The notes: generated by a model not told the origin, from the sequence alone. Positions 405 through 63,859 are shown, counted from the stretch's first letter. The stretch: 64,000 nucleotides of DNA from Candidatus Uhrbacteria bacterium (GCA_016187515.1 JACPJN010000007.1:228778-292777), one strand, 5' to 3'. Program-made: numbers and translations.

Positions 405-474
405 TCCCCCCTCTTTCCGCCCGAGGCGGATCCGCCTTGGGAGGAAAGGTAAGAGGGGTAGGGGGAGTTATGAG
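405..474. repeat. GC-rich palindromic element (family P), intergenic copy
   Basis: CCCCCCTCTTTCC...GGAAAGGTAAGAGGGGTAGGGGGAGTTATGAG. Shares the ...GGTAAGAGGGG(G)TAGGGGGAGTTATGAG tail with the copy at 19141..19226. Confidence 0.7.
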
Positions 475-5340: not shown

Positions 5341-5346
5341 ACCCGC

Positions 5347-5622
5347 CTAAGTTTTTGCACTTAATAAGTAGTGCTTTAATGCTTTATGCATATATCGGCG
5401 ACCCCAGCCAGTCTTAAAAAATTTCTCCCTTTGTTCGGCATCTTTTCGATGGGGATAAGCTTCATAGTAAATAAGCATAAATGGGGTGCGTGTTTTAGTG
5501 GCAAACGATAGTTTAGCATTATGTTCTCGTATTCTTTTCCGTAAATTATCCGTACATCCTATGTAGAATTTACCATCTTTGAGACTTCGTAGAATATACA
5601 CATACGAGAACATACGGTGCAA
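5347..5622 (-). CDS. GIY-YIG nuclease family small protein
   Basis: 91 aa. YVYILRSLKDGKFYIGCTDNLRKRIREHN is the GIY-YIG motif. Embedded inside the sugar operon. Confidence 0.7.
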   Translation of the reverse strand: MHRMFSYVYILRSLKDGKFYIGCTDNLRKRIREHNAKLSFATKTRTPFMLIYYEAYPHRKDAEQREKFFKTGWGRRYMHKALKHYLLSAKT

Positions 5623-5626
5623 AAAT

Positions 5627-7012: not shown

Positions 7013-7018
7013 TTCAAT

Positions 7019-8017: not shown

Positions 8018-8091
8018 AGATTTTACATTGTACTCCCTTCTAAACAAAAAGCAAGGGGGTATGCTCGTCAGAACAATACCCCATGGAACCG

Positions 8092-32614: not shown

Positions 32615-35600
32615 TTACGCGCTATTTTTGCTCTTGCGCGTGATAAGAAACCAAGCCGCGCGGGTTCCGGAGACAAAGAGTTTCCGCCGGCGCAGCGCGG
32701 CCGCGGCCGCCACCGCGCCTCCTCCGGCCGCCGTGGCGGTAGTATAGGGAGAGGGTTCGGCGGTTGATGCTCCGTCTTTTTCTGTCTCCGCGCCAGTTGC
32801 GCCCAACAATTCATCTTTACTCAAAATCTCAATATCTTCGGTAAACCTGGGCATGAGTTGATACCCGTTTTTGGTCTGTCCTAAAATACCCGTAACCGCG
32901 ACTCTAAATCCCGGGACAAGCTCGGTCATCTTAATATCGGTCGTATTCTTTACCGCCACATAAACTTCCCCGGCCGCATCCTCCAAAGTAAATCCGGAGT
33001 TTTTTATATCAATAATCGTGCCTTCCATCTTAATTAACGCGGCCTCGGTTTCCTCACCAACTTCATCGCTTAAAACCTGGCGCGGAATTGGCGCTTTTCC
33101 TTTCTTAATAAATCCAACGTCTTCCTTATCTTTAACGCGAATCCGATACTCGCCGCCGGCCTGACCCAGTACGCCTTGAACGGTAACCACATCGCCAATC
33201 TCAAGCGCCGGAAACGCTTTTTTGCTGGAATAAACCTGCAAACCTGATTCCCGGCTTTGCCGAGGATCCTCGGTAGTAAAGCTACCGGGACCGAATAAAT
33301 AAAAAATCTGCGCGCCGAGCATTCCGGGCGGCGCGGAAACCACTCCTTGCACGCGGACTTTTGTACCCAGCTCAAGATCACGCACTTCGGAAAGCGGTAC
33401 TTCCTGCGCGGCGTAAGACCCCTCCTCCGCTCCGCGCGGGAGAGGAGGGGGTGAGGACGATTCAATCACATTTTTCGCGCCCGGTGTTAACTTCCCGGTC
33501 CATCCCCACTGACCGTTTTGCGTCCGCGCGTAACTGTGTCCCTCACGCGCTTCTTCATACTCCACACTATCGATCAGCCGACCGACCGGATCAAACAAGC
33601 GCACCGCGTCCGTTGTATTGTTGAGCGTAAGCCGCGTTTTTGATTTGGGGAAAAGCGCGTAGCTGTGCGGCGCGGCTTTAACCGCCTCAATCGTATGGGC
33701 CGGACTCCCGCCTTCGATGTCATCCAGTTTAAATCCGGCCAGATCCAATTCTTCAGCGCCATCCCAAAACAGTTCAAGCCATTCTCCCTCATCAGATCCC
33801 TCCGGATCAGGAATAAATTCCGAGATGAAAAGTTTATCTCGCACATCAGAAATCCCCTCACCCCCACCCTCTCCCGCAGGGGGCGAGGGAGTACGATTGG
33901 CTTCCTCCCCCTTGATGGGGGAGGATTGAGGAGGGGGTGGTAATTTTGTGTTATCTGTGTCGATTTTCTGTGATTCTTCAATCACGTTTCCCTGCCCTTT
34001 CGTCACCTTCGCCGTTACCGCAAAATCCTTCTGATCATTAGCGGTGTCTTGCCCGTCTACCCGTCGGGCAACCGAATGGGGGTCTTGAGCGGCTGGCGCG
34101 TTATCCGAAGGTATGCCATCCTCCCACACGCCATAGGCCACGCGATCCACTACTGCGTTTTTATCATTTTTTAGCCGAATGATGTCGCCCTTGTTGTTGA
34201 GATTGCCTTTGATTGTCTCCACCACCAAAAACATTCCGGGAACAATGGTGCCTTGCAATTTGGTCTTACTTTCCGCGCCTTCTTCTAAAAACCAACCTTG
34301 AAGATCAACCGCGACCTCGCCGGAGTTAAAAAGTTCAACCCACTCCTCGCCGTCTTCCGGATCAGACACGAATTCGTTGATCACTATTTCCGCGGAAGGA
34401 ATGTTCGATGGCGCGGATACAACATCTGTGCCTCCGCGAGTAACGGTTTCAGTAATAACTTTGATTGCGGTAATGGTATTGGCCGAACCCTTGGTTGGGG
34501 TAGATGAAACCGCAAAATCGACGTTATCTATTCCAGTATCCGCGCCATTGCTTTTGCGCGCCACCGCGTGTCCGGGAGTATCGGGCGCCGGGGCATTGTC
34601 GGAAATGTTTCCATCGTTCCAATCGCCATAAGCGGCTTTATCGAGAAGCAACCCCGCGGCCGACTTCAGTTCAATAACGTCGCCGCTATTGTTGAGCCGC
34701 GCGGACGAAACTTCAAAAACCAAAAAGCCGCGCGCCGAAATTGTGCCCGTAAGCGATTTTATGGAATTGCCGGTGCCGTCATAAATTCTCCACCCGGCCA
34801 AATCAATCGGGAGATTAGTATTGTTGTAAAGTTCAATCCACTCCACGCTGTCGGTCGGATTGGGAACAAACTCATTGATAACCACCTCTCCCGCGCCAAC
34901 CACCCCTTCCTCCCCTCCTGCCAAAGGAGGGGGAAGCGGATCGTTTTCCTCCCCTGCCGGAGGAGGGTCGCCTTCCTCGCTTTCTCCCCCTTCTGAAGGG
35001 GGAGATTCAGAGGGGGTCCCAAGCTCCGGCCGTACCGCACTTACGCTATTTCGCGGATCCGCGCTTGCCCGTAACACAAAATCCGCGACATTGTTATTGG
35101 TATCCGCGCCGTTACCTTCCGCGCCGCCCGGAAGACGCTCAATACTTTCGCCCGCGCCCGGATTTGCCGCGAAAACTGTCCCTTCCACAAAAGCGTTTGC
35201 CGCCGTACCCCAGCCGACCGCGTCAATGATCTCGCCGGTATTTTCCGGGCCGCGGCGAAGGGCGATCCCGTTGTCCGGAGCAATCGTGCCTACGGTGGTT
35301 TCATCCGGCGTAACCGCGATAGCCGTAAACCCGCTATTGGCCCAAAGATAATAGCCGTGGGATGGCACTAGCGCCGCTTCGGTCCAGGATTTCAGAGTAG
35401 TGTCGCTGGTGCCCGTGGCGGTTCGCTTCACCAGCCGTATCCCATTCAAATCTACGGCCGCGGCCGTGGGATTGTAAAGCTCCACAAAATCATTCGTAGT
35501 TTTTCCCGCCCCGCCGGTGATCTGCACTTGGGAAATTAGCAGTCCGGTACCATGCGCGGCCGAGGCAAGGTTCCCCAAATAAAAAAATCCCCCCACTACT

Positions 35601-35635
35601 ACTAAAAATATAGAAATCCTTCGGTAAAACACCAT
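32615..35635 (-). CDS. large cell-surface protein with four lamin-tail domains (LTD) and repeat-element-derived P/G/E-rich linkers
   Basis: ORF 32615..35788; probable start MVFYRRISIFLVVVGGFFYLGNLASA (signal/TM) at 35635, because the longer ORF would run through tRNA-Leu. Four repeats of the LTD pattern, e.g. INEFVPNPTDSVEWIELYNNTNLPIDLAGWRIYDG. Linkers PPSEGGESEEGDPPPAGEENDPLPPPLAGGEEG coincide with GC palindromic elements. Confidence 0.7.
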   Translation of the reverse strand: MVFYRRISIFLVVVGGFFYLGNLASAAHGTGLLISQVQITGGAGKTTNDFVELYNPTAAAVDLNGIRLVKRTATGTSDTTLKSWTEAALVPSHGYYLWANSGFTAIAVTPDETTVGTIAPDNGIALRRGPENTGEIIDAVGWGTAANAFVEGTVFAANPGAGESIERLPGGAEGNGADTNNNVADFVLRASADPRNSVSAVRPELGTPSESPPSEGGESEEGDPPPAGEENDPLPPPLAGGEEGVVGAGEVVINEFVPNPTDSVEWIELYNNTNLPIDLAGWRIYDGTGNSIKSLTGTISARGFLVFEVSSARLNNSGDVIELKSAAGLLLDKAAYGDWNDGNISDNAPAPDTPGHAVARKSNGADTGIDNVDFAVSSTPTKGSANTITAIKVITETVTRGGTDVVSAPSNIPSAEIVINEFVSDPEDGEEWVELFNSGEVAVDLQGWFLEEGAESKTKLQGTIVPGMFLVVETIKGNLNNKGDIIRLKNDKNAVVDRVAYGVWEDGIPSDNAPAAQDPHSVARRVDGQDTANDQKDFAVTAKVTKGQGNVIEESQKIDTDNTKLPPPPQSSPIKGEEANRTPSPPAGEGGGEGISDVRDKLFISEFIPDPEGSDEGEWLELFWDGAEELDLAGFKLDDIEGGSPAHTIEAVKAAPHSYALFPKSKTRLTLNNTTDAVRLFDPVGRLIDSVEYEEAREGHSYARTQNGQWGWTGKLTPGAKNVIESSSPPPLPRGAEEGSYAAQEVPLSEVRDLELGTKVRVQGVVSAPPGMLGAQIFYLFGPGSFTTEDPRQSRESGLQVYSSKKAFPALEIGDVVTVQGVLGQAGGEYRIRVKDKEDVGFIKKGKAPIPRQVLSDEVGEETEAALIKMEGTIIDIKNSGFTLEDAAGEVYVAVKNTTDIKMTELVPGFRVAVTGILGQTKNGYQLMPRFTEDIEILSKDELLGATGAETEKDGASTAEPSPYTTATAAGGGAVAAAAALRRRKLFVSGTRAAWFLITRKSKNSA
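33420..33460. repeat. family P-like palindrome inside LTD surface protein gene
   Basis: CCTCCTCCGCTCCGCGCGGGAGAGGAGGGGGTGAGGACGATTC. Encodes SSPPPLPRGAEEG. Confidence 0.55.
33853..33945. repeat. family P palindromic element inside LTD surface protein gene
   Basis: ...CTCCCCCTTGATGGGGGAGGATTGAGGAGGGGGTGG; the GATTGAGG tail is shared with the ugd copy. Confidence 0.7.
34902..35017. repeat. family P palindromic element (composite) inside LTD surface protein gene
   Basis: ...CCCCTTCTGAAGGGGGAGATTCAGAGGGGGTCCC; the AGATTCAGAGGGGGTCC tail is identical to the ahcY copy. Confidence 0.75.
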
Positions 35636-35728
35636 GGTATTGAAAAACTTTCGGTATTCTGCTATATTATAACATACGCGCCGCGGTGGTGAAATGGCAA
35701 ATTTACCCCGTAAGCTCTTGCCCAGATG

Positions 35729-35750
35729 GCGGAACTGGAATACACAGCCC
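35729..35750 (+). other. degenerate partial copy of tRNA-Leu 5' end
   Basis: GCCCAGATGGCGGAACTGGA versus tRNA 5' GCCGAGATGGCGGAATTGGC, 17/20 identical, lying about 30 nt upstream of the intact tRNA. Confidence 0.5.
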
Positions 35751-35760
35751 TCCAAAATTT

Positions 35761-35844
35761 GCCGAGATGGCGGAATTGGCAGACGCACTGGGTTTAGGAC
35801 CCAGCGATCGCAAGATCATGGGAGTTCAAATCTCCCTCTCGGCA
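35761..35844 (+). tRNA. tRNA-Leu (anticodon TAG)
   Basis: GCCGAGATGGCGGAATTGGCAGACGCACTGGGTTTAGGACCCAGCGATCGCAAGATCATGGGAGTTCAAATCTCCCTCTCGGCA. 7-bp acceptor stem, anticodon loop TTTAGGA, long variable arm, T-arm GGAGTTCAAATCTCC. No encoded CCA. Confidence 0.85.
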
Positions 35845-51802: not shown

Positions 51803-52060
51803 ATGACCATCAATGACTTTATAAAACAGCGCCCGCATCTGATTTGGTATACCAAGAATTATGCCGGTCTTAATGCGGAGGCAATTGTCGAGGCAACGCT
51901 CAATTACGGAAATTGGAAGGACGTACAAACGCTGATAAAAATTATGGGGGTGAAGGAGGTGGCACGCGTCTTTACTACCTACGCGAACCGGCCAAGATGC
52001 AATTATCGTCCTGATATTAAGCATTTTTTTACTCTTTACTTTAAGCGCCATGCCCCGTAG
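51803..52060 (+). CDS. small AbiEi-like wHTH protein (candidate antitoxin), cassette 1
   Basis: ORF 51773..52060, but its first ATG lies inside the promoter spacer, so the start is taken as MTINDFIKQRP. Homologous to the small protein at 54709 (shared L[YW]Y...YG[ND][WL]K..Q...G......R.....YR pattern). Confidence 0.5.
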   Translation: MTINDFIKQRPHLIWYTKNYAGLNAEAIVEATLNYGNWKDVQTLIKIMGVKEVARVFTTYANRPRCNYRPDIKHFFTLYFKRHAP

Positions 52061-52067
52061 TGAAACC

Positions 52068-52679
52068 ATGCATAAAGAAATTCTTACTTCCGAGCAAGTT
52101 GAGCTCTTGCCGCTGGTTGGCTCGTTTTCCAAAGAGTTTGGTTTGGTAGGCGGTACGGCGGTTGCCCTTCAGCTTGGCCACCGGCGTTCCATTGACTTTG
52201 ATCTTTTTTCTTTTAAGGGCTTCAATAATTTAAGCATCAAGCAAAAAATATCGCGGAAACGTAAGATTGATGAAATTTATGTGAACAGAAAAGGGGAGTT
52301 TACTTTTCTGATGAATGGGGTTAAGGTAACTTTTTTTCACTATCCTTTCGAGCTTGATTTTTCAGAGCGGTTTGACCGCGTAATCCGCATGCCGGACCTG
52401 CTGACCCTTGCCGCAATGAAGGCCTATACATTGGGGCAAAGAGCCAAATGGAAAGATTATGTAGATCTGTATTTTATCATGCAAAAATATCATGGCATCT
52501 CGGCAATCGCCGAGAAAGCCGAGACACTCTTCGGCAATGAGTTTAATGAAAAATTATTCCGCACCCAGCTCACATTTTTTCAAGATATTAACTATGCGGA
52601 AAAAGTTGAGTATCTGCCGGGGTTTGAGGTTGAACAACATACCATTGAAAAAGCGCTTGAAAACTACAGCGTAAGTTAG
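52068..52679 (+). CDS. AbiEii/AbiGii-family nucleotidyltransferase (candidate toxin), cassette 1
   Basis: ORF 52050..52679. Start MHKEILTSEQVELLPL at 52068 aligns with the paralog's MHHETIEKK. GLVGGTAVALQLGHRRSIDFDLF NTase motif. Confidence 0.7.
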   Translation: MHKEILTSEQVELLPLVGSFSKEFGLVGGTAVALQLGHRRSIDFDLFSFKGFNNLSIKQKISRKRKIDEIYVNRKGEFTFLMNGVKVTFFHYPFELDFSERFDRVIRMPDLLTLAAMKAYTLGQRAKWKDYVDLYFIMQKYHGISAIAEKAETLFGNEFNEKLFRTQLTFFQDINYAEKVEYLPGFEVEQHTIEKALENYSVS

Positions 52680-54349: not shown

Positions 54350-54669
54350 ATTTTGAAATGTGTAAAAGTACCGGTTCACTTATGCAACACGAAGACTAAG
54401 CTTCCGGAAAAGTATGGCTGTTGGCAATACAATGCGCGGGACAAGCATCTTTATTATTACCCAAATTTTAAATCACAGACATCGAGGTAACCCTCTCTTC
54501 CGTCATTTCGACCGAGGATCCGACCGCGGTCGGATCGAAGTGGAGAAATCCCACCCCCTGCCATAATGCAAGAGGAATTTTGCAAGCAGTAACAACCCGC
54601 CGCGTCTGCCGGTGCCACAGCACCGAAGCGAAGCGGAGGCATGTGCGTCGGTGGGAGAGGCGGGTCTTT

Positions 54670-54698
54670 TTGACAAACCCGCGATTTTGTGATATCAT
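54670..54698 (+). promoter_or_regulatory. consensus sigma70 promoter giving a leaderless transcript (cassette 2)
   Basis: TTGACA-17nt-TATCAT with TG extension (tgTGaTATCAT). ATG at 54709. Confidence 0.6.
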
Positions 54699-54708
54699 AT
54701 TGTGTAGT

Positions 54709-55029
54709 ATGAAGACCAAACTTCCCAAATCCCTCTACCGTTATTTTTGGGATATTGAACCGGAGAAACTTGACGTGCGCCAATACTCCACCTATGTAAT
54801 TTCACGATTGTTTGAGTACGGTGATCTCAAGTCGATTCAATGGATGCGTAAGACATACCGCACACCGACACTCCGTGCTGCCCTGACCCGACGAGGTCTT
54901 TCACTTAGATCCCGGCACTATTTTGCCCTCCTGTTTGATCAAAAACTTCATAAAATTTTATGCACCACGAAACCATCGAAAAGAAAACTCGCGCTGCTCT
55001 CGAGCTTTTGGGATCGTCGCGACTCCTAA
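54709..55029 (+). CDS. small AbiEi-like wHTH protein (candidate antitoxin), cassette 2
   Basis: ORF 54580..55029, trimmed to MKTKLPKSLYRYFWDIEPEKLDVRQ... directly after the promoter. Its 3' end overlaps the NTase start by about 70 nt (possibly a frameshifted or extended tail). Confidence 0.45.
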   Translation: MKTKLPKSLYRYFWDIEPEKLDVRQYSTYVISRLFEYGDLKSIQWMRKTYRTPTLRAALTRRGLSLRSRHYFALLFDQKLHKILCTTKPSKRKLALLSSFWDRRDS

Positions 55030-55574
55030 ACGATTTTTATCTTGCCGGCGGCACCGGACTTGCGCTCCATCTTGGCCATCGTCTTTCCTACGATCTTGAT
55101 TTTTTTTCTCCCAAAGAGTTCTCACCCCAATCGATGATCATTAAACTTCGAAAGGCGGGACATTTTGCTCTTGACAGTAAAGACAAGGGAACCGTGCACG
55201 GACAATTTGGGGGCGCCAAATTGAGTCTTCTACGCTATCCCTACCCGCTTCTTTTTCGTCCCGCACAATGGTTGGGTATCGCAATCGCGGATCCGCGCGA
55301 TATCGGCTGCATGAAACTTGACGCGATATCCTCCCGTGGCACAAGAAAAGATTTTATTGATCTCTTTTTCCTCCTCAAAACAATCTCATTAAAAGACCTG
55401 CTCGCATTATTTGAGAAAAAATATCGTCGCGTCAGTTATAATCTTGCGCATGTATTAAAAAGCATTGTGTACTTTGAGGATGCGCGGTCAGAGCCGGAAC
55501 CCACTATGCTTCTTCCATACTCCTGGGAAAAAATTGAACGCCTGCTTGAACAGCAAATAAAAACAACCCTATAA
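54960..55574 (+). CDS. AbiEii/AbiGii-family nucleotidyltransferase (candidate toxin), cassette 2
   Basis: 204 aa. FYLAGGTGLALHLGHRLSYDLDFF NTase motif. Paralog of 52068..52679. Confidence 0.7.
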   Translation: MHHETIEKKTRAALELLGSSRLLNDFYLAGGTGLALHLGHRLSYDLDFFSPKEFSPQSMIIKLRKAGHFALDSKDKGTVHGQFGGAKLSLLRYPYPLLFRPAQWLGIAIADPRDIGCMKLDAISSRGTRKDFIDLFFLLKTISLKDLLALFEKKYRRVSYNLAHVLKSIVYFEDARSEPEPTMLLPYSWEKIERLLEQQIKTTL

Positions 55575-55857: not shown

Positions 55858-55959
55858 CTATTCGGCTCTTTTCAATACTCTCTCAAATCCCTGCGACCGC
55901 TCCGGCGGTCTTTTTTTATTTCGAGCAATTGACCTGATTGACAGGACATGATACAGTAC

Positions 55960-56050
55960 TGTGTACGAATTACGAATCTTGTCCGAATGTTACGAATACA
56001 TTGATTAATGCAAATTCGTAGTATTCGCAGCGTCATTCGTAATTCGTATA
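55960..56050. repeat. long imperfect palindrome of TACGAAT / ATTCGTA heptamer repeats in the infB 5' region
   Basis: gtgTACGAATTACGAATcttgtccgaatgtTACGAATacattgattaatgcaaATTCGTAgtattcgcagcgtcATTCGTAATTCGTAtac. Also a 10-nt perfect palindrome ACAGTACTGT at 55953-55962. Confidence 0.7.
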
Positions 56051-56054
56051 CAAT

Positions 56055-59000
56055 ATGAACGTTACTGAACTCGCTCGTCGGCTTAAAGTGTCTCCGCAAG
56101 AGCTTCGGGAAATGCTCCCGGCGCTTGGTTTTGATATTGGCATGCGCGCGGTTAAAGTTGACGATCGGACGGCCTGGCGCATTATTGAGCAGTGGCCGCA
56201 ATTGCGCCGCCAATGGCAGACCCTGAAGCAAAAAGAAGACGTGGCCAAAGTCGCCGAGGTGGCCAAGGCCGCCCAGGAGGTAGAGCTTCCCGCGATGATG
56301 ACTGTCCGCGAATATGCCGCCTATCTGGGACTCCCGATTGCCCGAGTGATCTCCGAACTGATGAAAAACGGGATTTTGGCGGCCATGAATGAACGCCTGG
56401 ACTTTACAACGGCTTCCATCATCGCGCAGGATTTGGGCTTCAAGATCAAAGAAAAAACCAAACCAACCTCCATCGAGGAAGAGGTAATCTCCGATGTAAT
56501 CCGTGAGCGGCTCGGTCAAGAGACCGCCGAGCAGCTTAAAGAGCGTCCGCCGGTAGTGGTCGTTATGGGCCATGTTGATCACGGCAAGTGTATTACCGGC
56601 GATACTGAAATTGTGTTGGGGAATGGTGAATTAAAAACGGCTCAGGCATTTTGGGAGGAAGAAACTGCCACGCAATCTCCAATTGCTTCACCTGATGGTG
56701 AAGGTGAATTTGTTGCGCCTCGCTCAAATATCAGCACCATGAGTTATGACCCAGACAGCCATACCATGAAAGCTTCTAAAATTGAGGCGCTGTGGAGGAT
56801 GCCAGCGCCTCAAGCGCTTACTGAAATTAGGCTGCGCTCGGGTGATAAAGTAACGACCACGCCAGAGCACCCCTTCTTTGTGACAGACCTTTCGGGCGAC
56901 ATCAGGCAAGTACCAGCCCAAAATATCTCTGAGGGGCAGTTTGTGATTATTCCTCAAAAATTACCCACGCACAATACTCTCGAAAAATTAGCTCATGAAA
57001 TCATAGAAAGACTTGGCAAGAGCAAAGATTTACTTATTCTTCTTCACAAAACACGGGGTAAAGACTTTCTCACGCGCCTGGAATCAGCCAATAAACAAGA
57101 ATTGTTACGCCAAGGTATACTTTCTACAAAACCACGTTCAAAACAGTATGGACTAAGGAGATTGCGCGCCAGGGATTATATTCTTCTTGGTCGTAAGTGG
57201 CGCTACTGCGACTATGAACTGTGGGAAAGTGTTGAAGCCATAAAACATGCTTCAGAAAAACAAAGAGCATCTCACAAGAGCTTCTTTATACGCTTTCCTC
57301 AACCCAGTGATGACTTACGACAACTCGGATATATTATGGGATGCCTGGCTGGTGATGGTCATATTCCAACAATGCAACTTTCCAATAACGACGGTGATAT
57401 TCAAGAAGCCTATAAGGAAGCGCTGGAAACAATCTTTGGCATCACGACTACCAAATACTCCTACGCAGGCGCGTGTGATACTATCGTCACAACTGGCGGC
57501 GAATCTTTAGCTCGATTCATGTTCGAGATAGCGGGCTTTCCCAGAAAGCAAAAAAGCGCTACTATCACCCTCCCTGTAATCGCACAAATAAATTCGGATA
57601 TCTTTCGCGGCTTCATCGAAGGGTGGTTCGATACTGACGGATATGTATCACCGTTTAATTGGTGGGTAGAAATCACCAGCAAAAGTCACGCGCTGGTACA
57701 ACAATGCGCCACACTCTTACTGCAGGATGAAATTCATAGTGTGATTGCTGAAAAGAAGGGGTTTTTTACCTTGCGGATTGCCAACGAACCTTATCTTTCC
57801 AAGTTTGCCTCTGTCTATCACCCTTGCTGCATGAGAAAAGTCTCCAGATTGGCAGATGCCGTGCACCATGCGGGCACGAGCCGTATTTTTGATCTGACGC
57901 CACTCTCCGGGGGTAGTCTTTTATCTCAAATCAACGTACGAGGGGGTAATAAGACGGTGCCTTTCTTAAGTCGCTATCGAGATTATAGTCAACTGTCACG
58001 GCCATTTTTGCAAGGCTTATTGCCCAACGTCACTCCTCAGAGTGTCGCGGTACTGGACAGAATTAAACCCTGGCTGACAAGCGAGATAAGTTTAGTTCCT
58101 GTCATATCAGTCAGACAGGTGCCGCCCGGTGATGCTTTTGTCTATGATTTCACCGTACATAAAACTCATACCTTTATTGGAAATAGGATTGTACTCCATA
58201 ACACCAAATTGCTCGATGCCATTCGCAAAACTAATGTCGTGGCTACGGAAGCCGGCGGAATTACCCAGCATATCGGCGCTTATCAAACCGTCCGGCACAA
58301 CCGCAAAATTACCTTCATTGATACCCCCGGACACGAGGCCTTTACCACCATGCGCAGCCGCGGGGCGCGGGTGGCGGATGTCGCTATTTTAGTGGTGGCG
58401 GCCGACGATGGGGTCCAGCCGCAAACCGTGGAAGCGCTAAACATCATCAACGCCGCGAAAGTTCCGTTTGTGGTCGCCGTGAATAAAATGGACAAACCGG
58501 AGGCCAGCGCAGACAAAGTAAAACGCGAACTTTCGGAAAAAGGAGTAATCCCGGAGGATTGGGGCGGCAAAACTCCTTTCGCACCCATCTCGGCGAAATC
58601 CGGCCTGGGGATTGACGCGCTTCTGGATGTCATCCTCTTGGTCGCCGACCTGGAGAAAGAAAAAATCACGGCCAATCCGGAGGCGCGAGCGCTCGGCACC
58701 ATTATTGAGGCCCACGTTTCCCCGGGCGAGGGCGCGGTCGCGACTATGCTGGTCCAAAACGGAACTTTAAAAGTCGGCGATGCGCTGGCTGTGGGCCACT
58801 CACTCTACGGCAAAGTCCGCGCGATGAAGGCCTGGGACGGCGCGCTGGTTAAAACCGCCCCGCCCGGAATGCCGGTGCGCATCCTGGGGTTCAAGGTTGC
58901 TCCGGAAGTCGGAGACATCGCGGAGGTGCCGGAAAATCCCAAACTGCTCGAACTTAAAAAAGCCCGTCCAACTTTTGAAAAACTGGTGATTAGTCCTTTC

Positions 59001-59651
59001 AACACCCGGACGGAAGAAGAAATTAAGGCCCAAACCCTGATTAATGTGGTAATCAAGACCGACGTGCTTGGCTCGCTGGAGGCCATCCTGGCGAAATTGG
59101 AGCAACTGCAGACCCCGGAGGTCGCGGTAAAAGTCGTGGCTAAAGGACTGGGTAACATTACGGAAGCCGAGATTCTCCAGGCCGAGTCCTCCAAAGCCAT
59201 TGTCTATGGCTTTCAGGTGATCGCCCCGCCGGCCGTCCTGGAACTCGCGCGAGAAAAAAGCGTGGAGATTCAAATGTATAAAATTATTTACGAACTGCTT
59301 GACGACATTAAAGGCCGCTTGGAGGTGCTGCTGAAACCGGAAATTCTGCGCATTGCTTTGGGGAAACTAAAAGTCCTGGCGGTGTTTCGAAAAGAGCGGC
59401 ATCATGCTATTATAGGAGGACGGGTGGAGGAGGGCAAAGCCGTTAAAAAAGCCAGGGTAACGATCATGCGCGCGGGCGCCGAGGCCGGAGGCGGCGAGAT
59501 TACGGAATTGCAATCCGCTAAACAGGCGGTCTTGGAAGTGCCCGGCGGTTCGCAGTGCGGTCTGAAAATCAACACCAAAGCTGAAATTCAGGAAGGGGAC
59601 GTGCTCGAGCTGTACCGCGAAGAGAAAAAAGAGCGCAAACTTGCGCTTTGA
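56055..59651 (+). CDS. infB: translation initiation factor IF-2 precursor interrupted by an intein in the GTPase P-loop
   Basis: 1198 aa. G1 motif GHVDHGK split after K178 by CITGDTEIVL...FIGNRIVLHN, then TKLLDAIRKTNV resumes IF-2. Downstream G motifs DTPGHEAF and NKMDK. C-terminal IF-2 domains present. Extein about 660 aa. Confidence 0.9.
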   Translation: MNVTELARRLKVSPQELREMLPALGFDIGMRAVKVDDRTAWRIIEQWPQLRRQWQTLKQKEDVAKVAEVAKAAQEVELPAMMTVREYAAYLGLPIARVISELMKNGILAAMNERLDFTTASIIAQDLGFKIKEKTKPTSIEEEVISDVIRERLGQETAEQLKERPPVVVVMGHVDHGKCITGDTEIVLGNGELKTAQAFWEEETATQSPIASPDGEGEFVAPRSNISTMSYDPDSHTMKASKIEALWRMPAPQALTEIRLRSGDKVTTTPEHPFFVTDLSGDIRQVPAQNISEGQFVIIPQKLPTHNTLEKLAHEIIERLGKSKDLLILLHKTRGKDFLTRLESANKQELLRQGILSTKPRSKQYGLRRLRARDYILLGRKWRYCDYELWESVEAIKHASEKQRASHKSFFIRFPQPSDDLRQLGYIMGCLAGDGHIPTMQLSNNDGDIQEAYKEALETIFGITTTKYSYAGACDTIVTTGGESLARFMFEIAGFPRKQKSATITLPVIAQINSDIFRGFIEGWFDTDGYVSPFNWWVEITSKSHALVQQCATLLLQDEIHSVIAEKKGFFTLRIANEPYLSKFASVYHPCCMRKVSRLADAVHHAGTSRIFDLTPLSGGSLLSQINVRGGNKTVPFLSRYRDYSQLSRPFLQGLLPNVTPQSVAVLDRIKPWLTSEISLVPVISVRQVPPGDAFVYDFTVHKTHTFIGNRIVLHNTKLLDAIRKTNVVATEAGGITQHIGAYQTVRHNRKITFIDTPGHEAFTTMRSRGARVADVAILVVAADDGVQPQTVEALNIINAAKVPFVVAVNKMDKPEASADKVKRELSEKGVIPEDWGGKTPFAPISAKSGLGIDALLDVILLVADLEKEKITANPEARALGTIIEAHVSPGEGAVATMLVQNGTLKVGDALAVGHSLYGKVRAMKAWDGALVKTAPPGMPVRILGFKVAPEVGDIAEVPENPKLLELKKARPTFEKLVISPFNTRTEEEIKAQTLINVVIKTDVLGSLEAILAKLEQLQTPEVAVKVVAKGLGNITEAEILQAESSKAIVYGFQVIAPPAVLELAREKSVEIQMYKIIYELLDDIKGRLEVLLKPEILRIALGKLKVLAVFRKERHHAIIGGRVEEGKAVKKARVTIMRAGAEAGGGEITELQSAKQAVLEVPGGSQCGLKINTKAEIQEGDVLELYREEKKERKLAL
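56589..58202 (+). mobile_element. intein (538 aa) with double-motif LAGLIDADG homing endonuclease
   Basis: Begins with Cys (block A CITGDTEIVLGNG), block B TTPEHPFFV, ends VLHN before extein +1 Thr. LAGLIDADG motifs YIMGCLAGDGHI and GFIEGWFDTDGYV. Confidence 0.85.
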
Positions 59652-60802: not shown

Positions 60803-63800
60803 CTACTTCACCCACTCTCCGATTTTCTTGTAGTTTTGAACTGCCCACTGACCGACCGACATTTTTGGATTGGCCTCATGAAGTTCCATGGCCTGGGCCA
60901 GCTTATAATGCGCATCATTTTCCGCTGAAAATAATCGAGCCGGACTAAATCGTGCCGGGGCATCTTCGATGAAATCCTTAACTGGCATATCATCCCACGC
61001 CATAAACCATCTTTCCGGAATCGCAAATTCGCCAAAGTGCAGCTTACCGTCCGCCGCTCGAAGTCCCCCTTCGTCAATCGGCCGCGTCAGCGCGCGCGCG
61101 TCGCGTGGAACCTGTACTCCCGCCTCATCAGGTGCTGGCGCCTCAACTGCTCCGCCTTCTGGCGCGACTGCGACCGCTGCGGCCTCGGCTTTTCCTCCAA
61201 ATTCTTTAATCGCGGACGTATAGGCCTTATCCAGCGCTTGTGCTAATTCATCTCCGGCATAGGGGTGGTCAAGATCAATGGGCGCGTCCAGTGCATGCGT
61301 ATATTCCTGCCCTTGCCAAGCCGCCGTGATTTTGTGAATAACGCCGTTTTCAACCGGCACAACATTATTTCCAAGATGCGCCGCGTAGTTATGCTCATCC
61401 GCCACATCTTCCGGCCTGACTTCTAATCCCGGAATGCCGGTAGTTTGGGCTTCATATTGCGCCACTTGTATTTCTGCTTTATGCACGGCTGGGCTCTTGT
61501 CAAAATCATCCACTATAATCTTTATACCAGTGCCATGTGCACGCGCGTCCATAATGCCCTGTGAGATACTTCGTTTCGTATTATTAAGGTAGGCCATCAT
61601 GGAAACATTGTATTTATCCGCCATGTGTTCAAGCTCCGGCATCAATGTTTTAAACTTGTCCACATCTTCAACAACAAGATCGCCATGGTCATCAAGGTGC
61701 ACTACATCCTTGGCTTTTGCAAGAAGCGCGTCTATTTTTGCTTGATCAAAATCTTTTGCAAACCACTGCGCGTGCAACCGCTCGTGATGCACCGTATGCG
61801 TCAATATTTTAATAATTTTCTCCGCGCGGTCCATTTCAATATCGGTTAAGTGATCACCTTTAACATCAAGATCCTGCAATATCACGCGCCGGAGCCCTTG
61901 CTGCACTTCTTCAAACCCATGCGCGCGATCACCAAGCGGAATTGTCAAACGATGACCATCAAGAACAGCCCGGTGCTCTTCCACAAGCGATTTAATCACC
62001 CCATGCTTGCTCAAAAATTCTTCCGGTGTCTCCACAGGCGGTGCTTCCGCCGCAGGGACCCCTGCGATAGCAGCGGGTTTCACTGGATGTACTTCCGAAT
62101 GCGTTTGTAGCGTTTCCTGTCCGCGCTCGCCGCCAAAGACAAGATGCCAAGCGCCCTTCATTCCTTTCCAAACCCGCTCTGGATAGCGCACAAAACTATT
62201 CCCAATCGCCGTAAATGGGCCATCTTTATCCCATTGATCCTGAAATTCCTGAACATTGCGCCGGATCGCTTCGGTTACTCCGCCATGATCCCATTGTGAA
62301 TACGCAGAAAATCCAATAGAAGCATAGCGCGCAGTAATGAGCAGTGCTTTTAATTTGTCCATTCCTTTCCCAGCCCAAAGCATGCCATATTCTTTCACGC
62401 CTTCCGCAATGGTTCGCTTGGCCACCACTTCCCACGCTTTTTCCAAAACTCCCGGCTCCAGCGCTTCTCCCTCACGCAAGGCCTTGGCGCGCAAATCCAG
62501 TTCATATTCTTTTTTCTGTTTAAGCGCGCGTTCAATCGGACCCATGGCAAAAAGAGCCAGACCGCGTGCAAGATACTGTTGGGTGACAAAAAGACCAGTA
62601 TTCACTGCCTCCTTTGCCAATGTAAAACCAGTTACTTTTTTAATTAAATAATCATCGACAATCCGGTCTCCGTCTTTTATTACCTGTTCGGTTGGAGCAT
62701 CGAATTCTTTTGCGCGCTTACTTAATGTATCCGCAATTTCTCCCAGTATTTGATCACGCCGTTTTGCCGATAATTTTCCATCTGAAACAAGCTGATTAAC
62801 TTGCGTCCGCAAGGTTTCCACTTTTTGGTCAAATACTTGGCGCTGATCTTCTGGCAGTGCAAAAAACCATAACGGCTCGTTTTCGCGGGTAAGTTTTCTC
62901 GCCTCCTGGGTAAACAGCTGGTCAATTTCTTTCATGATATTTCCCACGTTCTCGCCCACTGATTTCCGTGTCTTGCTTTCTTGCCTGCGTAGCGCAATGG
63001 CAAGCGGCAAATTTGCCCCAAATGCTTTAGTCAAGTTGTCAATTACAGTATTGTTAAGCAGTTTTTCAAATAATCTTCTTTTTGCCTTGCCTGGCTCTCG
63101 GGGCAATTGTTCAGTCGCGGCTTCGGCCGGCGGCGGTTCTACAAGTCGTGGGGTCTCCGGGACTGAAGGCGCTTCACGGGTCTCTGGAGTCACAGCAGGC
63201 GGGGCTGCTTCTGGCACGACCTCCGGCGCGGCCTGGCGAATCTCCTCGTCGGTTGCGCCTAGCCGCTCTTTAGCATCGCGGGCGGCTTTATCAAGTTCAT
63301 CACGCAAGCGAACAATTTCATCAAATCTCTGGGTTTGCAGTTCTTGAAGTGTACTTTGAAGGTCCGGGGGAATATCCGGCAAATCCAGAGCTGCTTGCGC
63401 ATTTATCGCTCCAAGTTGGTCAACAAGCTGACGATATTCTCGTGCTTCAGCGGGCTGTTTTTGAAAGCGCTGGCGACGGGCTTTAGGTGAAAGATCAAGA
63501 TAAGGACGCAACTTATCCAAAATACTTTGGGCCACAATTTTCAAATCCGCGATTTGCCCAGCGTAGGATTCCACCTCTTTTAGCGCATCTGCCTTGGCTG
63601 CCCGCGGACGGTACGGCACCACTGGCCCGCGCTCTAATTTCCGGGGAGAGATTTCTCCAGCGACAGCAAGACGCTCCCGCGCGCCTTCCGGCGGCGGGAT
63701 GACTGCTGGTCTGGTGTCTGGAAGCCCGGCGCCTGGCTCTACGCCAACTTCAGCCGGGGATGCGCGCTTAGCCGCAATCTCCCGGCCAATCGCAACACGC

Positions 63801-63859
63801 TCTGCATCGCTAAGCCGAGCGGCATTCGGCACTTCAAATTTTATCCGTGGTCTTGCCAT
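60803..63859 (-). CDS. large hypothetical protein (1018 aa ORFan)
   Basis: Single long minus-strand ORF, moderately GC-rich. P/A/E-rich N-terminal third, no nameable catalytic motif. Start overlaps/abuts the upstream partial gene. Confidence 0.5.
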   Translation of the reverse strand: MARPRIKFEVPNAARLSDAERVAIGREIAAKRASPAEVGVEPGAGLPDTRPAVIPPPEGARERLAVAGEISPRKLERGPVVPYRPRAAKADALKEVESYAGQIADLKIVAQSILDKLRPYLDLSPKARRQRFQKQPAEAREYRQLVDQLGAINAQAALDLPDIPPDLQSTLQELQTQRFDEIVRLRDELDKAARDAKERLGATDEEIRQAAPEVVPEAAPPAVTPETREAPSVPETPRLVEPPPAEAATEQLPREPGKAKRRLFEKLLNNTVIDNLTKAFGANLPLAIALRRQESKTRKSVGENVGNIMKEIDQLFTQEARKLTRENEPLWFFALPEDQRQVFDQKVETLRTQVNQLVSDGKLSAKRRDQILGEIADTLSKRAKEFDAPTEQVIKDGDRIVDDYLIKKVTGFTLAKEAVNTGLFVTQQYLARGLALFAMGPIERALKQKKEYELDLRAKALREGEALEPGVLEKAWEVVAKRTIAEGVKEYGMLWAGKGMDKLKALLITARYASIGFSAYSQWDHGGVTEAIRRNVQEFQDQWDKDGPFTAIGNSFVRYPERVWKGMKGAWHLVFGGERGQETLQTHSEVHPVKPAAIAGVPAAEAPPVETPEEFLSKHGVIKSLVEEHRAVLDGHRLTIPLGDRAHGFEEVQQGLRRVILQDLDVKGDHLTDIEMDRAEKIIKILTHTVHHERLHAQWFAKDFDQAKIDALLAKAKDVVHLDDHGDLVVEDVDKFKTLMPELEHMADKYNVSMMAYLNNTKRSISQGIMDARAHGTGIKIIVDDFDKSPAVHKAEIQVAQYEAQTTGIPGLEVRPEDVADEHNYAAHLGNNVVPVENGVIHKITAAWQGQEYTHALDAPIDLDHPYAGDELAQALDKAYTSAIKEFGGKAEAAAVAVAPEGGAVEAPAPDEAGVQVPRDARALTRPIDEGGLRAADGKLHFGEFAIPERWFMAWDDMPVKDFIEDAPARFSPARLFSAENDAHYKLAQAMELHEANPKMSVGQWAVQNYKKIGEWVK

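What the first reader, a model, noticed from the sequence alone, without database searches (positions are those of the whole stretch)
56055..59651. IF-2 P-loop interrupted by a 538-aa intein carrying a LAGLIDADG homing endonuclease
The G1 motif GHVDHGK of infB is followed directly by Cys (CITGDTEIVL, intein block A). The insert contains block B (TTPEHPFFV), two LAGLIDADG motifs (YIMGCLAGDGHI, GFIEGWFDTDGYV) and ends ...VLHN, followed by Thr (TKLLDA), after which canonical IF-2 continues (DTPGHEAF, NKMDK). This is a complete, apparently splicing-competent intein in the most conserved nucleotide-binding loop of an essential translation factor. The P-loop insertion site is the classic intein hotspot. 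IF-2 inteins are known mainly from archaea, so a bacterial IF-2 host may be unusual. Just upstream, the infB leader contains a long palindrome of TACGAAT repeats (55960-56050).
Basis: partly seen in the sequence, partly recalled or inferred. Interest (0 to 1): 0.6.

Follow-up and report, generated by a model that had tools for sequence, protein, structure and literature searches.

The report
Intein in a bacterial IF-2 gene
The gene for the essential translation factor IF-2 of an uncultured Uhrbacteria (CPR) bacterium is interrupted in its GTP-binding loop by a complete self-splicing intein with a homing endonuclease; the kind of element is well known, but its closest relatives sit at the same spot in the archaeal counterpart of IF-2, so this selfish element has probably moved between bacteria and archaea.

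Summary
ORF 56055-59651 (+) encodes a 1198-aa bacterial IF-2. Its Walker A motif GHVDHGK|T is split by a 538-aa insert (nt 56589-58202).

The insert has every class-1 intein hallmark: Cys1, block B TxxH, block F, and His-Asn followed by Thr+1. It also has two LAGLIDADG motifs with both catalytic Asp residues. Pfam and NCBIfam intein models match. An AlphaFold model (pLDDT 90) matches archaeal intein-endonucleases (TliVMA, PI-PkoII, PI-PfuI).

Removing the insert restores a 660-aa IF-2 that is 72-73% identical over its full length to intein-free Candidatus Uhrbacteria orthologues. One of these is syntenic. All 120 nearest orthologues lack the insert. The insert is compositionally foreign (GC3 42% against 63%).

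Its nearest relatives (32-38% identity) occupy exactly the same site in a few Patescibacteria IF-2 genes. They also occupy that site in the aIF5B genes of Micrarchaeota, Nanoarchaeota and other archaea. Intein similarity does not track host similarity, which points to horizontal spread, including across domains.

This is a new host group for a known intein site, not a new mechanism. Splicing and homing are inferred, not shown. The upstream TACGAAT palindrome is real, and intein-free relatives have a comparable leader hairpin, so it is unrelated to the intein.

The parts
56055..59651 (+). infB precursor ORF (1198 aa plus stop): N-extein, intein, C-extein
   Evidence: NCBIfam TIGR00487 scores 559 bits against a cutoff of 424. 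The protein is NCBI MBI2552494.1, 'IF-2 [Candidatus Uhrbacteria bacterium]'.
56055..56588 (+). N-extein, aa 1-178: IF2_N region and the first part of the G domain, ending in the Walker A residues GHVDHGK
   Evidence: The N-terminus MNVTELARRL is conserved in orthologues.
56589..58202 (+). Intein, 538 aa (precursor aa 179-716), from Cys1 to His537-Asn538
   Evidence: GC is 45.4% and GC3 is 42.4%, against 55.4% and 63.3% for the exteins.
56589..56963 (+). N-terminal part of the HINT splicing domain (intein aa 1-125), with block A (Cys1) and block B (TTPEHPFFV, nt 56856-56882; Thr91 and His94)
   Evidence: PDB sequence matches to the Pyrococcus CDC21-1 mini-inteins 6rpp/6rpq, E = 1.8e-11. TIGR01445 matches. 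C1, T91 and H94 are invariant in alignment A1.
56964..57308 (+). Mixed helix/strand region between the splicing domain and the endonuclease core (intein aa 126-240); probably an accessory DNA-contacting domain
   Evidence: The AF2 model is confident here apart from two short dips. The whole model superposes on PI-PkoII and PI-PfuI, which have such accessory domains. The role is inferred.
57309..57818 (+). LAGLIDADG homing-endonuclease core (intein aa 241-410). Motif 1 is YIMGCLAGDGHI (nt 57330-57365, Asp256). Motif 2 is GFIEGWFDTDGYV (nt 57609-57647, Asp350). There are two invariant Lys-Ser pairs (K322/S323, K365/S366).
   Evidence: Pfam LAGLIDADG_3, 1.9e-14. Invariant columns in A1. Foldseek matches to I-DmoI and I-Tsp061I over this part.
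57819..58082 (+). Helical region after the endonuclease core (intein aa 411-498), including the family-conserved SRIFDLTP segment
   Evidence: Function not assigned.
58083..58202 (+). C-terminal part of the HINT domain (intein aa 499-538), with blocks F and G (FVYDFTVHKTHTFIGNRIVLHN, nt 58137-58202)
   Evidence: second aligned stretch to 6rpp/6rpq. V518, Y519, D520, H537 and N538 are invariant in A1.
58203..59651 (+). C-extein, aa 717-1198, starting with Thr+1 (TKLLDA): the rest of the G domain (DTPGHEAF, NKMDK), domain II and the IF-2 C-terminal domains
   Evidence: The spliced junction VVMGHVDHGKTKLLDAIRKT is identical in amino acids to the intein-free orthologue in L027.
55929..55957 (+). 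Promoter-like site for infB (TTGACC-17 nt-TACAGT with an upstream TG), conserved in related Uhrbacteria
   Evidence: This is a consensus match only.
55957..56055 (+). Leader palindrome/hairpin made of 3x TACGAAT and 3x ATTCGTA. It fills the predicted 5' UTR and ends at the start codon. It is not part of the intein.
   Evidence: Comparable hairpins occur in intein-free orthologues.
55895..55917 (+). Terminator-like hairpin plus T-run that closes the upstream transcription unit
   Evidence: The same sequence is present in L027 and L114.

Best explanation
This is a mobile class-1 intein with a nested LAGLIDADG homing endonuclease. It is inserted in infB of a Candidatus Uhrbacteria (Patescibacteria/CPR) bacterium, between Lys178 and Thr of the Walker A motif GHVDHGK|T.

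**Proposed splicing mechanism (inferred).** The gene is translated as a 1198-aa precursor. That precursor cannot bind GTP, because the P-loop is split.
1. Cys1 performs an N-S acyl shift, assisted by block B Thr91 and His94.
2. The Thr+1 hydroxyl attacks the thioester to form a branched intermediate.
3. Asn538 cyclises, helped by His537, and releases the intein.
4. An O-N shift re-forms the Lys-Thr peptide bond.

The products are a normal 660-aa IF-2 and a free 538-aa intein.

**Proposed homing mechanism (inferred).** The free intein acts as a site-specific endonuclease on intein-less infB alleles at the GHVDHGK/T(K/T/S)LLD coding sequence. Repair from the intein-containing copy then spreads the element. 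The target encodes one of the most conserved peptide motifs shared by bacterial IF-2 and archaeal aIF5B. The same intein lineage has therefore colonised both proteins, and it reached this Uhrbacteria lineage horizontally and fairly recently.

**What is shown and what is inferred.** The anatomy, the fold prediction, the family relationships, the restoration of an intact IF-2 on removal of the insert, and the compositional foreignness are shown. Actual splicing, endonuclease activity, and the direction and timing of transfer are inferred.
For: - **Boundaries and motifs.**
- **Curated models.** Pfam Intein_splicing and LAGLIDADG_3 match. TIGR01445 passes its cutoff.
- **Sequence relatives with solved structures.** Archaeal CDC21, RadA, PI-PkoII, PI-PfuI and VMA inteins.
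- **Predicted fold.** The AF2 model has pLDDT 90.4 and pTM 0.92. Its best PDB matches are full-length intein-endonucleases: 7qss (E = 9e-25, TM 0.80 over the target), 2cw7 and 1dq3.
- **Catalytic residues.** C1, T91, H94, D256, D350, H537 and N538 are invariant in the family alignment.
- **Restoration of IF-2.** The spliced sequence matches 120 intein-free IF-2 proteins of 645-703 aa at 54-73% identity and about 100% coverage.
- **Syntenic empty site.** The Uhrbacteria MAG locus L027 is syntenic and intein-free. Its junction peptide is identical in amino acids, and 48 of 60 nt match.
- **Composition.** GC3 is 42% in the intein against 63% in the exteins and about 60-63% in neighbouring housekeeping genes.
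- **Same-site relatives.** They occur in 4 Patescibacteria and 6 archaeal genomes among the GTDB representatives, all with an open frame.
- **Decoupling from the host.** Intein identity to all of these relatives is a flat 32-37%. Host identity ranges from 49% (bacterial) down to 29% (archaeal).
- **Shared clade.** Bacterial and archaeal IF-2 inteins form one clade apart from other P-loop inteins, with NJ bootstrap 100 and 74 in two trees.
- **Reality of the sequence.** The gene is identical in 15 samples.
Against: - No experiment or proteomic evidence for splicing or for DNA cleavage is available.
- Thr+1 is a weaker nucleophile than Cys or Ser.
- A co-occurring related Uhrbacterium in the same sample (SRR12113383) has an empty site with the same peptide sequence. 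Either homing between these lineages is inefficient, or the 12 synonymous differences block recognition, or the endonuclease is no longer active.
- The trees are distance-based, and the internal branches have low support. The number and direction of cross-domain transfers are therefore unresolved.
- Low GC is common to these inteins whatever the host. Composition alone does not date the acquisition.
- Only 64 kb of the genome was examined, so a second infB copy cannot be excluded.
Confidence: 0.88

Rival explanations
1. The intein still splices, but its homing endonuclease is no longer active. The element would then be a fixed, vertically inherited passenger in this Uhrbacteria lineage rather than an active mobile element.
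For: - A related Uhrbacterium with an empty, peptide-identical target site co-occurs in the same sample.
- The nearest known relative of the intein is only 38% identical, so no recent transfer partner has been found.
- Homing cycles are expected to end in endonuclease decay (established model of the homing cycle).
Against: - Both catalytic Asp residues (D256, D350), the two invariant Lys-Ser pairs and the whole 170-aa LAGLIDADG core are intact, and they are conserved with the family.
- The 538-codon frame is open in AT-richer DNA.
- GC3 remains 21 points below the host gene, which argues against long residence.
Confidence: 0.25
2. The intein has been co-opted as a post-translational switch (conditional protein splicing). 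It would hold back active IF-2, and hence translation initiation, until redox, temperature or another condition permits splicing.
For: - The insert sits in the nucleotide-binding loop, so the precursor must be inactive (sequence).
- Conditional splicing is documented for other P-loop inteins, such as Pyrococcus RadA and mycobacterial DnaB (abstracts of PMC4513877 and PMC6195587).
- The intein uses a Cys1 thiol and contains several other cysteines.
Against: - Nothing in the sequence specifically indicates regulation.
- All 120 nearest orthologues do without the intein.
- The distribution is sporadic and decoupled from host phylogeny, as expected for a selfish element.
Confidence: 0.1
3. The insert is an artefact or belongs to another organism: a chimeric assembly or a mis-binned archaeal gene, or a dead pseudogene whose function is covered by another infB copy.
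For: - The closest intein relatives include archaeal genes.
- The homologous locus L001 carries a frameshift inside its intein.
- Only 64 kb of the genome was seen.
Against: - The exteins are bacterial IF-2. TIGR00487 passes its cutoff, while the archaeal models fail theirs.
- The exteins are 72-73% identical to Uhrbacteria IF-2.
- The flanking genes are syntenic with an Uhrbacteria MAG: comM, DUF6922, AbiEii, infB.
- The identical gene and flank were assembled independently in 15 samples.
- The frame is uninterrupted for 1198 codons.
Confidence: 0.02

Closest known systems
Archaeal aIF5B ('IF2') P-loop inteins, for example in Pyrococcus abyssi aIF5B and the 15 aIF2 inteins counted by Novikova et al. 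2016 (PMC4760082; PMC9226500 mentions the P. abyssi intein)
   Same: The host protein is orthologous. For the archaeal relatives recovered here, the insertion point is identical (GHVDHGK|T), the size is similar (522-546 aa), the splicing domain plus LAGLIDADG architecture is the same, and the boundary residues Cys1 ... His-Asn/Thr+1 are the same. They are 32-38% identical to the window intein and fall in one clade with it.
   Different: The host here is a bacterial IF-2 with IF2_N and bacterial C-terminal domains. The archaeal relatives recovered here are from Micrarchaeota, Nanoarchaeota, Geothermarchaeales and unclassified archaea. I did not have the classical Thermococcales or Methanococcales IF2 intein sequences, so I could not test whether they belong to the same clade.
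Related inteins in other Patescibacteria IF-2 genes: Saccharibacteria L007 and L014, Patescibacteria L010, bacterium L008, JGI contig L001, and proteins P0003 and P0011
   Same: Same site, same architecture and a bacterial IF-2 host.
   Different: They are only 31-37% identical to the window intein, which is no closer than the archaeal ones. Most of these hosts have a truncated IF-2 N-terminus of 17-30 aa before the P-loop. The window protein and P0011 keep a 170-180-aa N-terminal region. The L001 copy has a frameshift.
Structurally characterised archaeal intein-homing endonucleases: TliVMA (7qss), PI-PkoII (2cw7) and PI-PfuI (1dq3); also the Pyrococcus CDC21-1 mini-inteins (6rpp, 6rpq)
   Same: The overall predicted fold is the same: a HINT splicing domain with a LAGLIDADG endonuclease inserted at the canonical position, plus accessory regions. 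The CDC21-1 inteins are the best sequence match for the splicing domain.
   Different: Sequence identity is only 14-16% over the whole structure, or 23-25% over the splicing domain. The host proteins differ (V-ATPase, DNA polymerase, ribonucleotide reductase, MCM). The CDC21-1 structures lack the endonuclease.
Other P-loop (GK|T/S) inteins of the same sequence family, in archaeal EF-2, FtsY, FlaI/T2SS-type ATPases and SMC
   Same: Same position within the Walker A motif, same length class (521-546 aa), and the same Cys1 ... HN|T/S boundaries. They are 21-25% identical.
   Different: The host proteins differ, and these inteins fall outside the IF-2/aIF5B clade.

Membership tests
Class-1 intein (HINT splicing domain) | N-terminal nucleophile (Cys/Ser/Thr) as the first residue, immediately after the N-extein | tested here: met
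   Cys179 of the precursor is intein residue 1 and directly follows GHVDHGK. It is invariant in alignment A1.
Class-1 intein (HINT splicing domain) | Block B TxxH motif | tested here: met
   TTPEHPFFV contains Thr91 and His94, both invariant in A1.
Class-1 intein (HINT splicing domain) | C-terminal His-Asn followed by a Cys/Ser/Thr +1 nucleophile in the C-extein | tested here: met
   The sequence is ...VLH537-N538 | T717-KLLDA. H537 and N538 are invariant in A1.
Class-1 intein (HINT splicing domain) | Matches curated intein profiles and the HINT fold | tested here: met
   Pfam PF14890 scores 70.3 bits against a cutoff of 35.8. TIGR01445 scores 46.4 bits against a cutoff of 24.5. Sequence matches to solved mini-inteins. 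Foldseek matches to intein structures at probability 1.00.
Class-1 intein (HINT splicing domain) | Removing the insert restores an uninterrupted, conserved host protein | tested here: met
   The 660-aa spliced sequence aligns over 100% of its length with intein-free IF-2 at up to 73% identity. The junction peptide is identical to that of L027.
Class-1 intein (HINT splicing domain) | Autocatalytic protein splicing actually occurs | not testable with these tools
   This needs expression of the precursor or a reporter, followed by detection of ligated exteins and free intein.
LAGLIDADG homing endonuclease (double-motif, monomeric) | Two LAGLIDADG helices, each ending in a catalytic acidic residue | tested here: met
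   YIMGCLAGD256G and GFIEGWFDTD350G. Both Asp residues are invariant in A1. Pfam LAGLIDADG_3 matches at 1.9e-14.
LAGLIDADG homing endonuclease (double-motif, monomeric) | Alpha-beta-beta-alpha-beta-beta-alpha core fold, duplicated | tested here: met
   The secondary structure of the AF2 model over aa 243-409 fits this pattern. Foldseek matches I-DmoI and I-Tsp061I with TM about 0.66 over the target.
LAGLIDADG homing endonuclease (double-motif, monomeric) | Site-specific cleavage of the intein-less allele, and homing | not testable with these tools
   This needs an in vitro cleavage assay on the 40-60-bp empty infB site (sequence given).
Bacterial translation initiation factor IF-2 (infB) | Passes the equivalog model and has the bacterial domain set (IF2_N, G domain, domain II, IF-2 C-terminal domains) | tested here: met
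   TIGR00487 scores 559 bits against a cutoff of 424. The archaeal TIGR00491 scores 203 bits against a cutoff of 555 and fails.
IF2/aIF5B P-loop intein allele (same insertion site as the archaeal IF2 inteins) | Insertion between Lys and Thr of GHVDHGK|T in the IF-2/aIF5B orthologue, and sequence relatedness to inteins at that site | tested here: met
   The site is identical in 10 genome loci and in more than 10 protein representatives. These inteins share a clade.
IF2/aIF5B P-loop intein allele (same insertion site as the archaeal IF2 inteins) | Relatedness to the classical InBase IF2 inteins of Pyrococcus, Thermococcus and Methanocaldococcus | not tested
   Those sequences were not retrieved by any search here. 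The Thermococci hits turned out to be FlaI-type ATPase inteins.

The most novel reading that the evidence does not exclude
One intein lineage circulates between the two groups of ultra-small episymbionts, CPR/Patescibacteria bacteria and DPANN-type archaea. It does so by homing into the universally conserved GHVDHGK|T coding sequence shared by bacterial IF-2 and archaeal aIF5B. That would make it a documented case of a homing element crossing the bacteria-archaea boundary at an orthologous site in the core translation machinery. I found no description of bacterial IF-2 inteins in the literature available to me.
Probability: 0.6. Interest if true: 0.5.

Novelty: new member of a known kind. Interest (0 to 1): 0.4.

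Why it matters
Inteins are strongly biased towards replication and repair proteins and are rare in the core translation apparatus, especially in bacteria (PMC4760082). This locus shows that bacterial IF-2 can host one at the same site as archaeal aIF5B.

Intein phylogeny is also decoupled from host phylogeny here. That makes the locus a clean marker of genetic exchange between Patescibacteria and small-genome archaea, which are known to co-occur in groundwater (abstract of PMC7906910; the habitat of these samples was not checked).

There is a practical consequence too. The insert triples the distance between the G1 and G3 motifs and adds 538 aa. It can therefore confuse marker-gene alignments and completeness or phylogeny pipelines that use infB.

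A Thr+1 P-loop intein from a presumably mesophilic bacterium, with an apparently intact endonuclease, could also serve as a protein-engineering or rare-cutter reagent. None of this changes how inteins are understood to work.

Tried and rejected
1. **Word-index protein searches.** I searched with the intein alone and with the nine-sequence intein alignment. Both returned only one hit (P0001), although the exhaustive representative search found 823. These two searches were uninformative about distribution.
2. **Metagenome scan with the spliced extein.** It returned mostly distant IF-2 genes from ordinary bacteria. Only L031 (72% identity), L032 and L033 (49%) were close, so it added little on presence or absence of the intein.
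3. **Viral contig scan with the intein alignment.** It gave only 21-31% partial matches to the LAGLIDADG core. There is no evidence for a viral vector.
4. **Weaker genome hits, L015-L026.** I examined six of them (L015-L017, L019, L025, L026) as possible classical Thermococcales IF2 inteins. They are inteins in FlaI-type ATPases and MCM, so they were rejected as IF2 relatives.
5. **Rfam scan of the whole window at gathering thresholds.** It found only a tRNA-Leu. The leader hairpin is not a described RNA family.
6. **TACGAAT as a genome-wide motif.** There are 11 copies against 7.1 expected in the window, which is not significant overall. The signal is purely the local cluster of six.
7. **Literature searches for bacterial, CPR or infB inteins**. 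They found nothing specific. The library lacks most subscription journals and InBase, so absence is weak evidence.
8. **BIL or Hedgehog-type HINT domain, or an unspliced inserted domain.** I rejected this because all splice-junction residues and an endonuclease are present, and because the P-loop would otherwise be destroyed.
9. **A naturally split intein in L001.** I rejected this. The two ORFs are joined by a single frameshift inside the intein, and the reading continues in another frame.

Full report
**1. The observation**

The window contains one long ORF at 56055-59651 on the + strand, 1198 aa.
- The Walker A motif GHVDHGK ends at residue 178.
- Residue 179 is Cys, at the start of CITGDTEIVL.
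- The insert ends ...RIVLHN at residue 716 and is followed by TKLLDA.
- The insert is exactly 538 aa, nt 56589-58202.
- Pfam reports IF2_N, GTP_EFTU, EF-G_D2 and IF-2 on the flanks, and Intein_splicing (2e-19) plus LAGLIDADG_3 (1.9e-14) on the insert.
- NCBIfam's bacterial IF-2 equivalog TIGR00487 passes its cutoff (559 bits against 424). The archaeal aIF-2 models do not. The intein N-terminal model TIGR01445 passes.

The sequence is not an assembly accident. The identical gene and identical upstream DNA occur on three independently assembled Logan contigs that represent 15 samples. The protein is public as MBI2552494.1, 'translation initiation factor IF-2 [Candidatus Uhrbacteria bacterium]'.

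**2. What the insert is**

By sequence, the splicing-domain halves match solved archaeal mini-inteins. The best matches are the Pyrococcus CDC21-1 inteins 6rpp and 6rpq, with both the N-terminal and the C-terminal halves aligned. The middle part matches intein-associated endonucleases.

An AlphaFold2 model was built on a nine-sequence family alignment and is confident (mean pLDDT 90.4, pTM 0.92). Its best PDB matches are full-length intein-homing endonucleases:
- TliVMA, 7qss: E = 9e-25, TM 0.80 normalised to the target.
- PI-PkoII, 2cw7.
- PI-PfuI, 1dq3.
- After these come mini-inteins for the splicing domain, and I-DmoI and I-Tsp061I for the endonuclease core.

In the family alignment the following columns are invariant, and the window sequence has all of them: Cys1, Thr91, His94, Gly255-Asp256-Gly257, Asp348, Asp350-Gly351, two Lys-Ser pairs (322/323 and 365/366), Val518-Tyr519-Asp520, and His537-Asn538.

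The anatomy is therefore that of a complete class-1 intein with an apparently intact double-motif LAGLIDADG endonuclease.

**3. The host gene and the empty site**

Deleting nt 56589-58202 gives a 660-aa protein.
- Its 120 best matches in the 5.8-billion-protein collection are IF-2 proteins of 645-703 aa. They are 54-73% identical at about 100% coverage.
- Where named, they are Candidatus Uhrbacteria, Parcubacteria or Patescibacteria. None of these nearest orthologues carries the insert.
- The best named one, P0151, lies on an Uhrbacteria MAG contig (L027) that is syntenic with the window: ABC ATPase, DUF5671, comM-like Mg-chelatase ATPase, DUF6922, AbiEii, infB.
- At the insertion point L027 encodes VVMGHVDHGKTKLLDAIRKT, identical to the window's spliced junction. 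48 of 60 nucleotides are identical, and all differences are synonymous.
- That intein-free allele also occurs in sample SRR12113383, where the intein-containing gene is found as well.

**4. Foreignness**

The intein has 45.4% GC and 42.4% GC3. The exteins have 55.4% GC and 63.3% GC3, and neighbouring housekeeping genes such as ftsH, the T2SS ATPase and comM have about 60-63% GC3.

Related inteins are also AT-richer than their host genes in almost every genome examined. The skew shows that the element does not share the host's composition, but it cannot date the insertion precisely.

**5. Relatives elsewhere**

An exhaustive HMMER search of 1.84 billion cluster representatives found 823 proteins with E <= 1e-3.
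- Apart from the window protein itself, the best 15 or so (E from 1e-104 to 1e-53, 33-42% identity) are all IF-2 or aIF5B proteins or fragments.
- In those whose N-terminal junction is included, the intein sits at exactly this site.
- Judged by their exteins, P0001, P0003, P0004 and P0011 are bacterial IF-2 (GGITQHIGAY...ITFIDTPGHEAF).
- P0005-P0010, P0012, P0014 and P0015 are archaeal aIF5B (…IPGLLFIDTPGHEAFTNLR…).
- A second, more distant aIF5B intein group (P0016, P0019, P0031; Nitrososphaerales by one member's name) follows. After it come inteins at the GK|T/S position of archaeal EF-2, FtsY, FlaI/T2SS-type ATPases and SMC.

A scan of one genome per GTDB species with the family alignment returned ten full-length relatives (31-36% identity). 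All have an open frame and all sit at the identical site.
- Four are bacterial: two Candidatus Saccharibacteria, one 'Patescibacteria group bacterium' and one unclassified 'bacterium' whose IF-2 extein is of bacterial type.
- Six are archaeal: two Micrarchaeota, one Nanoarchaeota, one Geothermarchaeales and two unclassified.

That scan used a single degenerate peptide pattern, so these counts are lower bounds.

**6. Horizontal spread**

The window intein is about equally distant from all of these relatives, at 32-37% identity. The host proteins, in contrast, range from 49% and 43% identity (P0011, P0004) down to 29-31% for the archaeal aIF5Bs.

The cross-domain intein alignments score about twice as many bits as the cross-domain extein alignments, about 300-340 against 157-177.

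Neighbour-joining trees recover the bacterial plus archaeal IF-2 inteins as one clade, separate from the Nitrososphaerales aIF5B inteins, the EF-2 inteins and others. Bootstrap support is 100 in the first tree and 74 in the second. In the larger tree the eight bacterial inteins group together, but without support.

The simplest reading is a single intein lineage that homes into the GHVDHGK|T coding sequence shared by IF-2 and aIF5B and has crossed the domain boundary at least once. The number and direction of transfers are not resolved by these distance trees. No close relative was found on viral contigs.

**7. Mechanism**

*Shown:* the precursor's P-loop is split between the phosphate-binding Lys and the Mg-binding Thr. 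All residues needed for the four-step class-1 splicing pathway are present.

*Inferred from the established intein mechanism:*
1. N-S acyl shift at Lys178-Cys179.
2. Trans-esterification to Thr717.
3. Asn716 cyclisation, assisted by His715.
4. O-N shift, giving a 660-aa IF-2 with an intact GHVDHGKT loop and a free 538-aa endonuclease.

IF-2 is essential, and the exteins are well conserved with an uninterrupted frame. Efficient splicing is therefore very likely. Endonuclease activity is likely from the intact catalytic residues, but it is less certain. The co-occurring empty site in a related species suggests either limited DNA exchange, sensitivity to the 12 synonymous differences, or lost activity.

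**8. Comparison with what is known**

P-loop inteins are a recognised hotspot, and aIF2/aIF5B is among the top 15 archaeal intein hosts. IF-2 is not among the top 15 bacterial hosts, and translation proteins 'contain few inteins' (PMC4760082). The P. abyssi aIF5B intein is mentioned in PMC9226500.

I found no paper describing IF-2 inteins in Patescibacteria or any other bacterium. The searchable library is incomplete, and the protein is already in NCBI under a plain IF-2 name.

The finding is therefore a new host group for a known intein site and kind. The mechanism is ordinary. The evolutionary pattern (CPR bacteria and DPANN-type archaea sharing one intein lineage) is the interesting part.

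**9. The upstream palindrome**

The palindrome is real.
- Six TACGAAT copies lie in 55964-56048, three on each strand.
- The arms 55957-55977 and 56035-56055 are 90% complementary.
- The RNA fold is -40 kcal/mol with z = -6.
- A promoter-like site (TTGACC-17-TACAGT, 55929-55957) and an upstream terminator-like hairpin (55895-55917) suggest that the hairpin occupies essentially the whole 5' UTR up to the start codon. No Shine-Dalgarno sequence is apparent.

Intein-free Uhrbacteria orthologues keep the same promoter and a long UTR hairpin ending just before ATG:
- L116 has related TACGAAT, CGCGAAT and CTACGAAA motifs (-32.5 kcal/mol).
- L031 has CTACGAAA and three TTTCGTAG motifs (-32).
- L027 and L114 have a different repeated motif (-43).
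- L115 has a weaker hairpin (-23).
- In L029, L111 and L112, infB abuts the upstream gene and has no such leader.

The structure is therefore a lineage-specific infB leader feature that is independent of the intein. Its function is open. It could be a 5' stabiliser, a hairpin that occludes translation, or an array of protein-binding repeats. It matches no Rfam family.

**10. Verdict**

- Confidence that this is a genuine, complete intein in a bacterial IF-2: about 0.9-0.95.
- Confidence that the full mechanism is as described, with efficient splicing and horizontal acquisition within an IF-2/aIF5B-specific lineage: 0.88.
- Interest is moderate. It is a textbook element in an unusual host, with a credible cross-domain transfer signal that a proper phylogeny and two simple biochemical assays could settle.

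Noticed in passing
window 55929-56055; L027 5885-6003; L031 about 2390-2503; L116 about 1090-1203; L115 about 1110-1203: The infB 5' UTR of this Uhrbacteria group is a long hairpin built from short repeated motifs (TACGAAT in the window). It starts at the predicted transcription start, ends at the start codon, and has no Shine-Dalgarno sequence. The promoter is conserved, the hairpin persists, and the repeat motif varies between genomes. It is present in intein-free orthologues and matches no Rfam family.
   Followed up: partly
L112 2389-3796 (Logan SRR22388267_226489): In a related Uhrbacterium the thioredoxin gene next to infB contains an intein. It appears to be inserted at the redox-active site: ...FWAPW|CIDPNTSVL... 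where WCGPC is expected. The gene runs off the locus.
   Followed up: no
L001 6001-9140 (JGI Ga0115863_1000228): A low-GC CPR genome has the homologous IF-2 intein at the same site, but a single frameshift near 7370-7390 splits infB into two called genes. This is either a sequencing error or a decaying copy. It is not a split intein.
   Followed up: partly
proteins P0020, P0021, P0058 (EF-2), P0036 (FtsY), P0044/P0054/P0056 (FlaI/T2SS ATPases), P0059 (SMC): Inteins of the same sequence family and size (521-546 aa) sit at exactly the GK|T/S position of the Walker A motif in at least five other NTPase families. This illustrates retargeting of one intein family among P-loops.
   Followed up: partly
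window 54580-55574 and 52050-52679: A DUF6922 plus AbiEii (type IV toxin-antitoxin nucleotidyltransferase) gene pair lies immediately upstream of infB, and a second AbiEii-like gene lies before comM. The pair is syntenic in the Uhrbacteria MAG L027.
   Followed up: no
window 60803-63859 (-) and 32615-35788 (-): There is a 1018-aa ORF with no Pfam match next to infB. There is also a 1057-aa protein with four lamin-tail domains and an OB-fold. Both look like the large surface or unknown proteins typical of CPR genomes.
   Followed up: no
L027 9288-10676: A reverse transcriptase (RVT_1) with an adjacent bAvd-like gene lies three genes downstream of infB in the syntenic MAG. This suggests a diversity-generating retroelement. 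It is absent from the corresponding place in the window, where synteny ends after infB (no trxA-trxB).
   Followed up: no
window 468-8047: The two ORFs checked at the left end of the window have clearly lower GC (44-47%) and GC3 (40-47%) than the housekeeping genes (GC3 about 60-63%). This may be another foreign segment.
   Followed up: no
window 22043-23428 (-): An ATPase_2 (PF01637, 'predominantly from Archaea') plus DUF234 protein is encoded in this bacterial window.
   Followed up: no
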